Source of the DNA: Octopus vulgaris
Taxonomy: Eukaryota
DNA length: 64,000 nt
Direction of reading: 5' to 3'
Assembly (NCBI GenBank): GCA_951406725.2
Contig: OX597822.1
Span: 70,122,001-70,186,000, forward strand
The stretch's first letter is position 1. The number at the start of each line of letters is the position of its first letter. The translations under genes and the position numbers were made by a program. Below are positions 10,000 to 61,199 of this stretch, in pieces. The notes beneath the pieces are model-generated. The model was not told where the DNA came from and made no database searches. It was given only the letters and a program-made list of their open reading frames with translations.

Positions 10000-10090
<91 letters not shown>
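10000..10090. repeat. (CT)n(TA)n compound microsatellite
   Basis: Read directly from the sequence. Confidence 0.98.
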
Positions 10091-10094
<4 letters not shown>

Positions 10095-10284
10095 TTTATA
10101 GAAGGAGCTTCTACAGGACTAGAACTGTTTCATTCAAAAGAAATCATCAGGAAGCTCCTGATGATTTCTTTTGAATGAAACAGTTCTAGTCCTGTAGAAG
10201 CTCCTTCTATAAAATAAATTAATTTACTCTGCTATGTATTGAGTACCTTATTTACTGTGGTTAACCCCGACTCAACCCGGGACC

Positions 10285-10288
<4 letters not shown>
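10089..10288. mobile_element. Penelope-like/retrozyme-like remnant: perfect palindrome plus ~70-bp unique tail, inserted in a (TA)n tract
   Basis: Arms 10089-10152 and 10156-10219 are exact reverse complements with a 3-nt loop (AGC). Contains hammerhead cores and is flanked by (TA)n on both sides. The Penelope assignment is inference. Confidence 0.6.
10103..10159 (-). ncRNA. Minimal type I hammerhead ribozyme motif
   Basis: Minus strand reads AGGAGCUUC-CUGAUGA-U UUC UUUU GAA U-GAA-ACAG UUCUAGUC CUGU-A-GAAGCUCCU. This gives a perfect 9-bp stem I, intact CUGANGA and GAAA core, short stem II, 4-bp stem III and a GUA cleavage triplet (cut between 10112 and 10111). Confidence 0.8.
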
Positions 10289-10322
<34 letters not shown>

Positions 10323-10377: not shown

Positions 10378-10765
10378 CTCTTTTGTCATTTGACTGTGGC
10401 CATGCTGGAGCACTGCCTTTAGTCGAGCAATTCGACCCCAGGACTTATTCTTTGTAAGCCTAGTACTTATTCTATCGGTCTCTTTTGCCGAAGTGCTAAG
10501 TTACGGGGGACGTAAACACACCACCATCGGTTGCCAAGCGATGTTGGGGGGACAAACATAGACACACAAACACATACATACATATATATATATATACATA
10601 TATATGATGGGTTTCTTTCAGTTTCTGTCTACCAAATCCACTCACAAGGCTTTGGTCGACTCGAGGTTATAGTAGAAGATACTTAACCAAGGTGCCACGC
10701 AGTGGGAATGAACCCGGAACCATGTGGTTGGTAAGCAAGCTACTTACTACACAGCCACTCCTATG
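10378..10765 (-). mobile_element. SINE family A (young, full length)
   Basis: High similarity to the reverse complement of 30321-30740; CpGs retained. Confidence 0.9.
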
Positions 10766-11276: not shown

Positions 11277-11650
11277 GTGGAGGCACATGGCCTAGTGGTT
11301 AGAGCAGGGGACTCATGGTTGAGGGCTCGTGGGTTCAAATCTCAGACAGGGTGATGTGTGTGTTTATGAGCAAAACACCTTGTGAGTGGATTTGGTAGAC
11401 AGAAACTGAAAGAAACCCATCGTATATATGTGTGTGTGTGTGTGCTTGTGTGTCTGTGTTTGTCCCCCCAACATCGCTTGACAACCGATGCTGGTGTGTT
11501 TACATTCCTGTAACTTAGTGGTTCAGCAAAAGAGACCGATAGAATAAGTACTAGGCTTACAAAGAATGAGTCCTGGGGTCGATTTGTTTGACTAAAGGTG
11601 CTGCTCCAGCATGGCCGCAGTCAAATGACTGAAACAAGTAAAAGAATAAA
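11277..11650 (+). mobile_element. Chimeric SINE: family F head plus family A 3' two-thirds
   Basis: Head matches the 5' end of the 31240-31594 element up to AAAACACCT, then continues as family A (TGTGAGTGGATTTGGTAGAC...). Confidence 0.8.
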
Positions 11651-33250: not shown

Positions 33251-34357
33251 CCTAAATTATTTTTAGAATTTTAGTTTTAGAATCTTGGAATAACTTTGGT
33301 ATTTAGTTTACTTCTAAATTGCTTTTACAAATTGACAGTGACGTTCATTCTCTAATTCATTCTTGGTAATTATGTAATTGTCACTTGTAATTTTATATAT
33401 TTTTTGTTTTGGTGATCATAACCTTTGTGGTTGGACTATGTAGGTCGTTTAAAAACTGTGTTAAATTTGAGGTTCAGTCGGGATTTTATTTACACGGAAA
33501 CAAAATATTCCATTGAATGGCTAGGGTCATGTGAATAATAAAAGAAGAAGGGTTAAAGTTGATGCTTGAATGATTGTTCTACGAGGATATTCATTCTGTT
33601 TCTTTCTCCCCATCCCCTCTATATCGTGTTACAGCTTTGAAACTGTTCTCAAATTACAGGGTTTCATATGACCCTCCTCCAACACTGTCTTCGTCTTCAA
33701 AATAGAAATCTGATAATCTCTGTAGACATATATAGGAAAATCAAGGCAGAACTAACTGCTCCACAGAAGTTCTATTCTAATTGTGAAGGAAGTGGTAAAA
33801 AAAAAAAAAAAGAACGAAGTGGGAGAGAAAGAAGGAGAGAAATGAACTGGTTTCTTGTGTTATTGAAACGATGCAGACAATGGCTTCAAAACAATTATTT
33901 GACAACAATAGAGATGACCTCCAGAATGGGCTGGCATATCCAGCATATCCAGCTCATTGCGTTGGGCTCATTGTGTTTGTAGTAGGGTTTGTTTCTAGCT
34001 TCTGTCAAATGTAGTTGTATAGAGAAATGAAAAAAAAAAAAAAAATCAGACTGCATGTCTCAGAGACAACACATAATAGCACTAGAGTTAGCTGTGCATG
34101 TAACCAGACAAACAGCCTGCTATTACATTCACAAGCAACACACTAAAAGTATACATGTAGGAGTAATAAATAGCTAAGGTAAACAACCTTAAATGCTGGG
34201 ATTAAGATGGTTTCGCGTTTAAAAATGTTTTGGAAATATTATCATGTATAAAAAAAAAACAGAAAGACAAGAAAGAACACTGAAACTTGCTGCTCATAAC
34301 AGATGAGCTGAGAATATGTGCAGGTAGACTGTCAGAATCAGTAGAGCATCAAGCTAA

Positions 34358-34585
34358 AGCTGGCAGTACCGTTAGCACGCCGGGTGAAATGCGTAGCCGT
34401 ATTTCGTCTGCCGTTACGTTCTGAGTTCAAATTCCACCGAGGTCGACTTTGCCTTTCATCCTTTCAGGGTCGATTAAATAAGTACCAGTTACGCACTGGG
34501 GTCGATGTAATCGACTTGGTCCCTTTGTCTGTCCTTGTTTGTCCCCTCTGTGTTTGGCCCCTTATGGGTAGTGGGGAAATAAAAT
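34358..34585 (+). mobile_element. SINE family B (young, CpG-rich)
   Basis: GAGTTCAAATTCC B box; GGTCGACTTTGCCTTTCATCCTTTCAGGGTCG...AAGTACCAG central domain. Confidence 0.88.
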
Positions 34586-52755: not shown

Positions 52756-54994
52756 ATCTAAAGCCATAGTTGTTAAGCACGGAATTAACAACATCAATAA
52801 ATACCAGCAGATGGCCACTATATCTTAACCCATTGAAGACATGATTTAAAAATAACATTTATTGTGTTTGCTCTTCTTATATGTATTCCTGGCAAATCTA
52901 GACTTGATAGCATCAATTTAAAGCAATTGATATTGTGAAAACCGCCTCTAGTCAAATCTTTAAATCAAAAGAAGTGATGCTGTTTGGTTAACTGATATAA
53001 ATACCATGAGATATAGCAGAACTTAGCTACTGAAAATGTTGGCTTGACTAAAATAGTATCTTAGTTGTAGATGTTATTCAGGCACAAGTAAATTTTGATC
53101 AGTATGTTCCAAACATGACCATCCTATGTAATTTCTTTTGCATATAATCTATCTAGAGTTCTTTATTCAGTGTTTTTTTGTTTTTCTTTAAAGACAGTAA
53201 GAAGTGGTTTGAAGGGAAATTTGGCTGTTATTTCTGGAAGGCTATGCAGTTATGTAGTGTCTATATTGTATTAGTTCTTGTAGGTGATTAATGCATCTTT
53301 GGAGTGTCAAAAATTTGAAGTTTTGTTGCTTAAATTGACCTTGATAATTGAATTCTCTGGAGAGAGGGATAGAGGGAGAAAAAGACCTTTTTGTATATGA
53401 AAAAGGACTCTTTGTCTGATTTAACCCCTCCACTCCCTGTCTGCTTCATGGGTGCCACTAGTGGAGTAAGATCTATGGCCAAGTTTTCAGTTTGAGAATA
53501 ACTTTTTCCTGCTACTTTTCCTATTCTGACTTAATGATGCAGACCCCCCCCCCCCCAAAAAAAAAACAAAACAAAACAAAACAAAATAACTTTTACTTGT
53601 TTCAGTCATTAAATTGTAACCATGCTGGGGCACCACTTTGAAGAATTTGAATGGATAAAAGATGCATGGGTATATTAAATGCTCCCTAATTTAAGCAGTG
53701 CATATTTAGAATACAAAAGTCATTATTGCATTAAAGCTAATGGAACGCCCAATATTGCATATACAATCTGGGGTGAATTTTTGGAGACATTTTTTAAAGG
53801 AAAAATTGCCATCAAATATAGTATTTGTATACGAAATACACTTGTTATAAAATTTGTCAAAATGTGAGCCCACAATTTCTGTGTTTTACCCCAGTTAAAA
53901 AATAGTAGTTAAATAAAAATAAAAACGAAATAAGTAGGATGTAATTTGAAGGAGATTCAGTTGCTATTTCTAGCAGGTTGAGCGACTGTATAGAGACTCA
54001 TTAAATGCATAAACTTTGTTTCAAAAACATTTTATAGAAAAATGTAAATTCATTTTTGCTAAACACAGAATTGAAGCTTACCAAACTTAAACAAACAAAC
54101 CACAAGGTTAGGTGCAATATCAAAATTATGTTTTACAGTTCCTTCTATTCTATGAATTATGAAAGTTCTTTCCTCAAAATTTAATGAGAGTATTTCTCTT
54201 AAACTTATTTCTGAAAACATTTGTTTGCTTTTAAAATTTAAAGATAGAGACATCACTCCCTTCACTGCTTTGCTTGTTTGCTTCTTAACCCTTCTCTCAC
54301 TATCTCTACTCCTACCCCCCCTCTCTCACATGGCCTCTTCTTTTGCTCCTACTCCTACTCTTTTCTCCCCACCCTGCCACTCTTTCACTCTCTTCCCTGC
54401 TTTTAATCACTCTCCTACATTCAACCTCTCCCCCAACTCTTTTTCAGTCTCTTTTACCCATCACTGTTATCGTTTTTCACCTATCTCTTTCATATCTCAG
54501 ACCTCCTCCTCCTCCTCATCCCCACTTCTTTCAGTATGTCTTCTCTTATCTCCCACCGATTCTTCCTCTCACCAGCTCTGCTCTTATTTACAATTTTTAC
54601 AGTTCCTTCTCTTACAATTCCAACATTGTAAAATGAAAACTTGGTGAACCTGTGTGAAAGCTTTCTGCTGTAATTTCTACTGCATCATTAACACCCGATA
54701 GATTGTTGAGAATTGAGTTAAAAAGGAAGAGAACAGTGTTTTGTGTGTTAAAAAGCACTTTTGAAATTTTAGATGGGGAAGCTGGCAATCACTCAGATGT
54801 TTTTTCTGCGTACAATAGTATAACTACCAAAACGAAATTAATACATCCAACATAGAGATGTCCCCTTCTGAGTGATAATTATAAATATTTGGATATACAT
54901 ATCTATGCTCATTTTACGTCTAGGTTTGGGCGGTATTGCTTTTCTTTTCTTTTTAGTGAATATTCATGTTTTTACAACACAACACATGCATGCA

Positions 54995-60092: not shown

Positions 60093-61199
60093 AAGAGAGA
60101 AGGCTGGGTAGATATTGGAAAAAAGTTTGAGAGATTGCGTTTCACTGTTTTTACGTAGAGTAATTGTTTTCAACTATTTTCAATCTGTGAACCCCTTTGA
60201 TTACTACTATTTTATCCTGACGAACCTGCCCCATCTGTTTCATGTTTAATAACTAGTGTTATAGATACTTCATTCATAATTCCTATTTTGTTTTTCACAC
60301 GTTCACTTACATAGGTTTGCAATAGCATTCTTTGAGAGAGCATGTTTCAGTTGGTGACTGTGTGGTAAGAAGCTTGCTTCCCAACCACATGTTTCTGGGT
60401 TCAGTCTCACTGCGTCGCACCTTGCATGGCCACAGTCAAATGAATGAAACTAGTAAAAGAGTACATTCTAAAGACCTCAAAGTTTCTAGATGTTGGTAGC
60501 CGTGTATAGTGCTGTTTCATCCTTCAGTGGAATCATCAGTATGACATAACTCGAGGCAAATAAATTTAGATAAACATTTTATGAAGTTAGACTTTGCTTG
60601 TACATACTTTCTTGCTTGTGTCTTTTCTTCATTCAGTATGTACTAACACCAGTTTACACTTGACAGCATACTAGTGCAGTTGTACTAGCAAACACATTTT
60701 AAGTGTCCAGTCTTCTTTTTTTTTATTTTTTTTTTTTTATTAGAATTCTATGCTGAACCTTTCTCTCAAGGCCATGTTGTACATTCAACTGATCATGCAC
60801 AATTCATTTATGCTTTACCAATTATTTCAATTCTTCTTATTGTATAGCCCATTTTTCATTGTCATAAAATGTCACATACTTAATTATTCCACCTTATCCT
60901 CACTGTAGCGTGTTACTAGGTAACCTAGTACAAAACAGTAGCAATAAAGTTATATTGTTTCATAGTTACTACACACAATTATCATTTTGAATTATTTTTT
61001 TTTGTTTCCTCTTATTTAATTGAATTATTCTCTAAAGTGGAAAGAGTTCTCTCGGCTCTTTGTTCTTATCTATATAACTTTGTCTCTACATTTTTGTCAT
61101 GTTTTGTGTTTTTTAATATCATATTGTTTTGAATCACATATTTGCCAAATGATGCTCATGTGTACTCAATGTTGTTTTCGTTTTTTTTTTTTTTTGTAG

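What the first reader, a model, noticed from the sequence alone, without database searches (positions are those of the whole stretch)
10089..10288. Perfect 64-bp palindrome places hammerhead cores on both strands and would mask them
Seen: arms with no mismatches and a 3-nt loop; the fold-back point coincides with the 5' strand of stem I. The plus strand (host pre-mRNA sense) has a second core (CTGATGA 10158-10164, GAAAC 10177-10181, GTA ending at 10196) with an imperfect stem I. The element sits in a (TA)n tract. Inference: a young Penelope-type inverted-end insertion made by fold-back. In read-through RNA the long hairpin should outcompete the ribozyme fold, protecting the kinase pre-mRNA while creating an ideal ADAR/Dicer substrate. 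Editing-dependent unmasking is speculative.
Basis: partly seen in the sequence, partly recalled or inferred. Interest (0 to 1): 0.75.

Follow-up and report, generated by a model that had tools for sequence, protein, structure and literature searches.

The report
Twin-primed stub of Penelope-like retrotransposon
This perfect DNA palindrome is one of about 700 head-to-head stubs of a young Penelope-like jumping gene, likely made when two DNA copies of the element's RNA start were pasted in from both sides of a break and joined; hiding of its predicted self-cutting RNA motif is likely a by-product, not protection of a host gene.

Summary
The palindrome is real: 64-bp perfect arms, loop AGC, hammerhead cores on both strands, inside (TA)n. 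It is not unique. The genome has 2,813 exact core matches and 709 head-to-head core pairs at most 12 nt apart, with variable junctions. The unit is the start of the 5' leader of a young Hydra-clade Penelope-like element; two uninterrupted 713-aa RT/GIY-YIG ORFs were found. In 67 of 71 pairs one arm carries a 68-nt tail and the other lacks it, both arms share subfamily variants (62 of 64; 39 of 39), and either arm can hold sequence the other lacks, which argues for two cDNAs (twin priming) rather than one fold-back. Arms stop sharply at the first base of hammerhead stem I, 29 nt after a conserved TATAAA, often with an extra G: likely run-off at the capped RNA start (inferred). The hairpin does beat the ribozyme fold (74-89 kcal/mol), but the plus-strand core is crippled anyway (2-bp stem I), and no kinase host was verified. 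RNA-like contigs give one weak hint of A-to-I editing. Known kind of insertion; the junction set makes an open question about Penelope inversions testable.

The parts
10040..10088 (.). Left (TA)n target tract (after a (TC)n run)
   Evidence: all sampled copies sit in (TA)n
10089..10156 (-). Tail-less arm, element sense on the minus strand: starts at AGCTTC (10156-10151, the native 5' strand of stem I and likely RNA start), ends at the proximal priming site ...TATAAAATAAAT (+62 from the C of CTGATGA)
   Evidence: 3' ends of tail-less arms peak at +62, 32 of 118 arms
10104..10158 (-). Type I hammerhead with native 6-bp stem I (8 bp here through the junction), 3-bp stem II closed by U.U, 4-bp stem III; predicted cut between 10112 and 10111
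   Evidence: (-13.5 kcal/mol vs MFE -13.8 in isolation)
10151..10157 (.). Head-to-head junction, 7 nt between the two cores; one of several junction forms in the family
10156..10287 (+). Tailed arm, element sense on the plus strand: hammerhead core 10158-10196 with truncated stem I, then leader to the distal priming site GGGACCTAC (+130)
   Evidence: 51 of 118 arms end at +134 = +130 plus 4 nt shared with the (AT)n target
10220..10287 (+). 68-nt tail between the two priming sites, ending in a predicted stem-loop (about 10257-10287); in full-length copies it continues ATATCC... into the ORF start 48 nt later
10288..10319 (.). Right (AT)n target tract

Best explanation
The palindrome is a promoter-less stub of a young Hydra-clade Penelope-like retrotransposon, likely made by twin target-primed reverse transcription: both ends of a cut (TA)n tract would each prime a cDNA on the element's RNA, one at a distal site (tailed arm) and one at a proximal site (tail-less arm). 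Shown: family, partner ORF, the one-tailed/one-tail-less rule, shared variants, private sequence in each arm, the sharp 5' limit at AGCTTC and the TATAAA 29 nt before it. Inferred: the limit is the capped transcription start, so on a transcript that begins in the element's own promoter the cDNAs are only about 70 and 135 nt long, run off the RNA 5' end, and are joined head to head through 1-6 nt microhomology (often the self-complementary AGCT or a cap-derived extra base). The template was mostly uncut RNA, since the arms run through the cut site. The resulting hairpin would mask both hammerheads in read-through RNA and would be an ADAR substrate, as a by-product.
For: Family size and variable junction: 2,813 core matches, 709 tight pairs. 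Partner: L038 links the unit to an ORF start; uninterrupted 713-aa ORFs in L151 and L152. Tail rule: 67 of 71 head-to-head pairs in 85 chromosome-C1 loci. Shared variants: loop II 62 of 64 (about 43% expected at random), A/T site 39 of 39. Two cDNAs: of 55 pairs with both 5' ends near the junction the tailed arm reaches further in 23, the tail-less in 18, equal in 14; 14 of 30 loci have a tailed arm without the core joined to a tail-less arm with it (two loci cut from view). 5' limit: in 65 loci taken in genome order, 30 of 118 arms start at the A and 11 at the G of AGCTTC, none 1-4 nt further up, and 28 of 37 tight pairs reach exactly these two bases; arms joined straight to (TA)n or to unrelated partner positions stop at the same base, so the AGCT palindrome alone does not explain it. 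TATAAA lies 29 nt before that A in 15 of 16 native upstream variants; TATAWA at 33-42 nt before the core in 7 of 32 divergent relatives vs 10 of 224 other windows, p 0.002, window chosen after seeing the data. Extra base: G 8, C 1, T 6 (T is native). In vitro a Poseidon-clade protein cuts and extends both strands, starts at two internal sites that define the tail, and prefers uncut RNA (PMC11167929).
Against: No RNA 5' ends were available: the transcription start is inferred, not mapped (only contigs). The extra-G test on AT-rich joints is weak: G 23, C 18, though 13 of the 18 C joints have T before the C and so read TCAG, which may be a snap-back remnant. BLAST arm ends are uncertain by 1-2 nt because of microhomology. 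Four of 71 pairs break the tail rule as scored (L093, L099 twice, L190; rearranged or interrupted tails) and 16 loci showed one arm within the fetched stretch. Most relatives (25 of 32) lack the TATA at that place; 5 of 32 have a splice-acceptor-like YAG just before stem I. The sample comes from chromosome C1 only. This locus itself is not confirmed by raw or long reads.
Confidence: 0.68

Rival explanations
1. Twin priming as above, but the 5' limit is not the transcription start: upstream RNA is trimmed by a 5'-3' exonuclease or a splicing/processing step up to the closed stem I, or the enzyme lets go where the hammerhead fold ends.
For: The limit coincides exactly with the outer pair of stem I; 5 of 32 relatives have a YAG right before stem I, as the D. 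virilis intron does (PMC4209133); this family also has TAG or AAG there.
Against: Fixed TATAAA spacing of 29 nt while the spacer sequence varies; extra G over C 8 to 1; no shared upstream exon sequence appears at the joints.
Confidence: 0.14
2. Self-priming fold-back: one cDNA or an antisense RNA (model of PMC3846280) snaps back at stem I and copies itself, and one end is then shortened.
For: Arms are identical at birth; the window junction can be written as a 3-nt-loop snap-back; some copies have only a 2-6 nt inverted remnant (L010, L128), which looks like snap-back.
Against: A self-copy cannot hold sequence its template lacks, yet each arm has private sequence here, in 18 of 55 pairs and in 14 loci; the short arm ends at a fixed site also in copies whose partner is kilobases away.
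Confidence: 0.1
3. The palindrome is itself a non-autonomous unit (SINE- or MITE-like) copied whole from a palindromic master.
For: The first search returned 39 of 40 scored copies with the same inversion.
Against: That set was biased by the query; in genome order the junction takes many forms and both orientations, variants are mirrored within each subfamily, the stub lacks the promoter, and there is no TIR/TSD signature.
Confidence: 0.04
4. The hairpin is kept or favoured because it shields a host kinase pre-mRNA from ribozyme cleavage, with editing able to unmask it.
For: Hairpin beats the forced hammerhead by 89 (plus) and 74 (minus) kcal/mol; A>G at a UAG site of the arm in 9-10% of contig depth in two RNA-like runs against 0.04% in a DNA run.
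Against: No kinase exon verified; the plus core lacks stem I anyway; 709 such pairs arise genome-wide; metazoan PLE hammerheads cut poorly in vitro (PMC4209133) or need the protein (PMC11167929); a few edits could not close a gap of this size (inference).
Confidence: 0.04

Closest known systems
Hydra clade of C-terminal GIY-YIG Penelope-like elements (Craig et al. 2021, PMC8557442; read: passages, section 11, first places of a supplement search)
   Same: Single ORF with RWK-like (RWR), DKT, CxCX5C linker, CxxC and CxH around the EN E and N, no CCHH; hammerhead in the terminal repeat; (TA)n target; inverted 5'-truncated copy and a tail at one end (Fig. 2 legend).
   Different: Unit about 4.3 kb (L110, core to core) against under 3 kb, because of a microsatellite-rich 3' region; tail 68 nt against 30-40; dominant insertion is a 200-nt stub of two arms only. 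The two Octopus rows seen in the supplement were Naiads; 2 of 4 'octopus' places and most Hydra rows were not viewed.
Poseidon element PAc of Anolis (Frangieh et al. 2024, PMC11167929; read: parts 1-2 of 4)
   Same: Two internal reverse-transcription start sites bounding the tail, a stem-loop at the start site, both target strands cut and extended, uncut RNA as main template.
   Different: Different clade; in the parts read the paper does not link the two sites to the two arms of an inversion, nor the junction to the RNA 5' end; there the ORF starts inside the hammerhead, here about 180 nt after the core begins.
Head-to-head pLTR palindromes of Adineta vaga Penelope (Arkhipova et al. 2013, PMC3846280; read: parts 1-3 of 5 and passages) and opposite-strand min-hammerhead pairs in Schistosoma (Cervera and de la Pena 2014, PMC4209133; read: parts 1-2 of 4)
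   Same: Inverted pLTRs with palindromic junction, tail on one arm, putative TATA in the pLTR; hammerheads on opposite strands 100-700 bp apart.
   Different: Explained there by self-priming on an antisense template; the present junctions favour two sense-templated cDNAs. Here the cores are 0-12 nt apart in 709 places.
L1 twin priming (recalled from memory, no call)
   Same: Both target strands prime cDNAs that are joined by microhomology.
   Different: L1 primes two different parts of one RNA, giving an inversion without duplication; here both cDNAs cover the same RNA stretch, giving a palindrome.
Animal non-LTR retrozymes (bioRxiv 10.64898/2026.07.22.740005; read: part 1 of 5)
   Same: Non-coding, type I hammerhead, derived from a PLE terminal repeat.
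   Different: Retrozymes are head-to-tail tandem units thought to move on their own RNA; this stub is head-to-head, promoter-less and remade at each insertion.

Membership tests
EN+ Penelope-like element | Single ORF with RT and GIY-YIG endonuclease | tested here: met
   713-aa open ORFs in L151, L152 with YRDD and LVY...YIG motifs; own Pfam scan found no RT or GIY-YIG model, but homologues carry PF01541, PF00078, PF26215
EN+ Penelope-like element | pLTR/partial tandem with hammerhead, inverted truncated copy, tail at one end | tested here: met
   L110 has the core at both ends of the unit; 67 of 71 pairs tailed plus tail-less
Hydra clade | RWK, DKT, CxCX5C linker, CxxC and CxH, no CCHH, C-terminal EN | tested here: met
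   RWR, DKT, CNCPDKTTC, CDLC, CMH read in the ORF; 115-118 of 119 homologues share these motifs
Hydra clade | (TA)n target | tested here: met
Hydra clade | Element under 3 kb | tested here: not met
   4,340 bp core to core in L110; the paper says 'generally short', so this is typical, not defining
Hydra clade | Placement inside the clade on an RT tree with reference families | not tested
   no named reference proteins were available from a tool
Type I hammerhead ribozyme | CUGANGA, GAAA, NUH with stems I-III | tested here: met
   minus core; relatives show compensatory changes in 8 of 10 pairs and all 64 descriptor hits lie on the coding strand (the descriptor itself required pairing)
Type I hammerhead ribozyme | G10.1-C11.1 pair closing stem II | tested here: not met
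   U.U here and in many relatives
Type I hammerhead ribozyme | Self-cleavage | not testable with these tools
   only an indirect hint from insertions that start at the cut site, inconclusive
MITE / DNA transposon | Terminal inverted repeats at both ends, fixed internal sequence, TSD | tested here: not met
   arms are unequal (68-nt tail outside the palindrome), junction varies, sequence belongs to an RT element; a TSD cannot be read in (TA)n
Non-LTR retrozyme | Head-to-tail tandem of hammerhead-bearing units | tested here: not met
   single head-to-head pair

The most novel reading that the evidence does not exclude
Penelope-like elements insert by a dedicated two-cDNA mechanism in which a dimer copies one RNA twice, once from each tail boundary; in this family the hammerhead's first base is the capped transcription start, so promoter-initiated transcripts can only yield dead 200-nt hairpin stubs while full copies need read-through RNA from a tandem. 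The stubs would be hundreds of fresh double-stranded RNA sources that are edited and could silence the element, and a minority of insertions record ribozyme cutting in the germ line.
Probability: 0.35. Interest if true: 0.72.

Novelty: new member of a known kind. Interest (0 to 1): 0.48.

Why it matters
How Penelope-like elements make their head-to-head inversions and one-sided tails is stated as unresolved in the papers read (PMC8557442, PMC3846280, PMC11167929). A young family with about 700 near-identical minimal junctions, two uninterrupted ORFs and a candidate promoter lets twin priming and run-off at the RNA start be tested directly. For host biology the single locus is ordinary: a by-product hairpin with no shown link to a gene.

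Tried and rejected
Fixed family-wide inversion point: suggested (39 of 40), rejected as query bias. DNA search with the tail alone found nothing (tool skips such words; uninformative). Rfam: no hammerhead at significance. Pfam on the ORF: no RT/EN hit. Kinase host: motif scans, Pfam on 150 of 169 plus and 150 of 179 minus GC-filtered frames and 60 further plus frames, PDB, atlas and homologue searches on two exon-like frames all negative; short or AT-rich exons may be missed, so a host gene is neither shown nor excluded. Raw-read check of this locus failed: 13 reads laid from X22, cut at the repeats; contigs are family-level only and no empty site could be seen. RNA 5' ends, strand and small RNAs could not be examined (contigs only); the fall of RNA-like contig depth upstream of the core is not usable as evidence. 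In-vivo cleavage test by counting arms that start at the cut site: 20 matches, against 7 at -6 and 20 at +1 (the latter pools +1 to +3 through shared A), so not decisive. A variant check read position 56 instead of 55 and was redone. Search for a family of the second hammerhead in the window found only itself. Literature searches showed no paper tying PLE inversions to twin priming or to the transcription start; the library lacks most subscription papers (for example the early Penelope promoter and structure papers), and bioRxiv supplements are closed, so absence from print is not established.

Full report
Observation. The arms 10089-10152 and 10156-10219 are perfectly complementary over 64 bp around the loop AGC, and both hammerhead cores are at the stated places. 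The element runs on for 68 nt on the right only and both sides are (TA)n. A model built from 24 hammerheads of distant relatives, without any sequence of this family, scores the minus core at 26.4 bits and the plus core at 19.1 bits.

Family. The genome (G000, 2.8 Gb; earlier AI notes call it octopus) has 2,813 exact matches to a 29-nt core pattern on both strands and 709 places with two cores head to head at most 12 nt apart. Tailed arms average 98% identity to this copy (69 arms). The first BLAST-type search suggested one fixed junction (39 of 40), but copies taken in genome order show many junction forms in both orientations. Contigs from three other sequencing runs (organisms A, B, C) hold the element, with pieces crossing the junction and the one-base-longer junction form; this speaks against an assembly artefact for the family, though this locus itself was not confirmed.

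Autonomous partner. Locus L038 showed the unit running on into an ORF start. Following it gave uninterrupted 713-aa ORFs in L151 and L152 and a unit of 4,340 bp with the hammerhead at both ends in L110. The protein has RWR, DKT, a CxCX5C linker, CxxC and CxH around the endonuclease end and no CCHH, the features given for the Hydra clade (PMC8557442 section 11); 1,116 homologues were found at about 40% identity, and 115-118 of 119 long ones share these motifs. No tree with named references was built. The window's element is the first 130-odd nt of this element's leader, without promoter or ORF.

Two priming sites. In 65 loci taken in genome order from the first 100 core matches on C1, arm 3' ends fall at +54 to +70 (63 of 118, peak +62) or +133/134 (52 of 118), with 3 in between; +134 is the end GGGACCTAC plus four bases shared with the (AT)n target. 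With 20 more tight pairs, 67 of 71 head-to-head pairs have one tailed and one tail-less arm; the four exceptions have rearranged or interrupted tails, and 16 loci showed only one arm in the fetched stretch. The two arms carry the same subfamily variant in 62 of 64 pairs at loop II and 39 of 39 at a second site, so they come from the same template type and are remade at each insertion. This matches the two internal start sites and two-strand extension seen in vitro for a Poseidon element (PMC11167929).

Two cDNAs, not one fold-back. A strand that copies itself cannot add sequence it lacks. In the window the tail-less arm has the full AGCTTC while the tailed arm has only TC, and only the tailed arm has the tail. 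Among 55 pairs with both ends near the junction, the tailed arm reaches further in 23, the tail-less arm in 18, and 14 are equal (ends uncertain by 1-2 nt). In 14 of the 30 loci fetched the tailed arm stops at the hammerhead cut site and the tail-less arm carries the whole core (two loci were cut from view; this set was selected by the pattern). Self-priming, proposed in PMC3846280, may still explain copies with only a 2-6 nt inverted remnant (L010, L128).

Why the junction sits at stem I. Of 118 arms, 30 start at the A and 11 at the G of AGCTTC, 32 start further 3', none start 1-4 nt further 5', 6 start 5-31 nt further up and 39 extend 35 nt or more further. Arms joined directly to (TA)n or to unrelated partner positions stop at the same base. 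TATAAA lies 29 nt before that A in 15 of 16 native upstream variants while the spacer sequence varies; the sixteenth has a deletion. That spacing fits a TATA promoter (textbook value, recalled). In divergent relatives from metagenome contigs a TATAWA lies 33-42 nt before the core in 7 of 32 non-redundant cases against 10 of 224 other windows (p 0.002, post hoc). An extra base before AGCTTC is G 8 times, C once and T (native) 6 times in one junction class; at AT-rich joints it is G 23, C 18, which is weak. An extra G is the expected trace of copying a cap (recalled from L1 work). I infer that the cDNAs run off the capped 5' end of a transcript that starts at stem I; trimming to stem I is the main rival.

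Masking and editing. Forcing the hammerhead costs 89 kcal/mol on the plus strand and 74 on the minus strand against the hairpin, so masking in read-through RNA is predicted. But the plus core alone has a 2-bp stem I (+0.2 against an MFE of -7.8), so it needs no mask; in a native leader the hammerhead is 5 kcal/mol above the MFE. No kinase exon could be verified. In contigs of two RNA-like runs of one study, the A of the UAG equivalent to window 10121 reads G in 8.8% and 9.6% of depth against 0.04% in a DNA run and none in a third RNA-like run. UAG is the preferred ADAR context (recalled). This is a family-level hint only: run type is guessed, individuals differ, and the mirror site on the other arm was not listed at the 3% threshold.

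Possible cutting in vivo. Twenty arms start exactly at the cut site after an AT-rich joint, against 7 at -6 and 20 at +1, which is inconclusive; in five insertions (L314/315, L319/320, L321, L323, L332) both arms stop within about 2 nt of the cut site with filler between them, as expected if a cut RNA was the template.

Verdict. The element is a stub of a Hydra-clade Penelope-like retrotransposon, a known kind of insertion; earlier AI notes on other families in this genome reached the same general reading (seen after my own reading was recorded, not independent evidence). The protective role is unsupported. What is of value is the junction set, which favours twin priming and points to the transcription start as the limit of both arms.

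Noticed in passing
window 60497-60547 (-): A second, solitary hammerhead of the same architecture but another sequence (21.5 bits with the relatives' model); the exact pattern occurs once in the genome, so probably an old copy of another family.
   Followed up: partly
L314/L315, L319/L320, L321, L323, L332: Insertions in which both arms begin at or within about 2 nt of the hammerhead cut site, with filler between: possible record of ribozyme cleavage in the germ line.
   Followed up: partly
L260, L263, L275, L297, L313 (metagenome loci): Relatives with a pyrimidine run and YAG directly before stem I, like the intron end described for D. virilis Penelope; others have a TATA box instead.
   Followed up: partly
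L110 native leader (window equivalent 10194-10212): The 3' strand of stem I can form a competing hairpin over the cut site, leaving the hammerhead 5 kcal/mol above the MFE: a possible built-in off state.
   Followed up: no
L088, L100, L154, L155 and others: Many near-full copies break frame at the same place after about 506 codons; L151 and L152, which are open, carry CTGAAGA instead of CTGATGA in the core.
   Followed up: no
window 10385-10649 and 11378-11629: Two copies of a common short repeat in inverted orientation, 83-89% complementary, about 0.7-1 kb apart: another possible double-stranded RNA source beside the palindrome.
   Followed up: no
window 34284-34421 and 54658-54852 (+): Two exon-like open frames; no match in Pfam, PDB, the atlas or the homologue search.
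   Followed up: partly
L052/L053: Two near-identical stubs 221 bp apart in tandem, separated by (TA)n.
   Followed up: no
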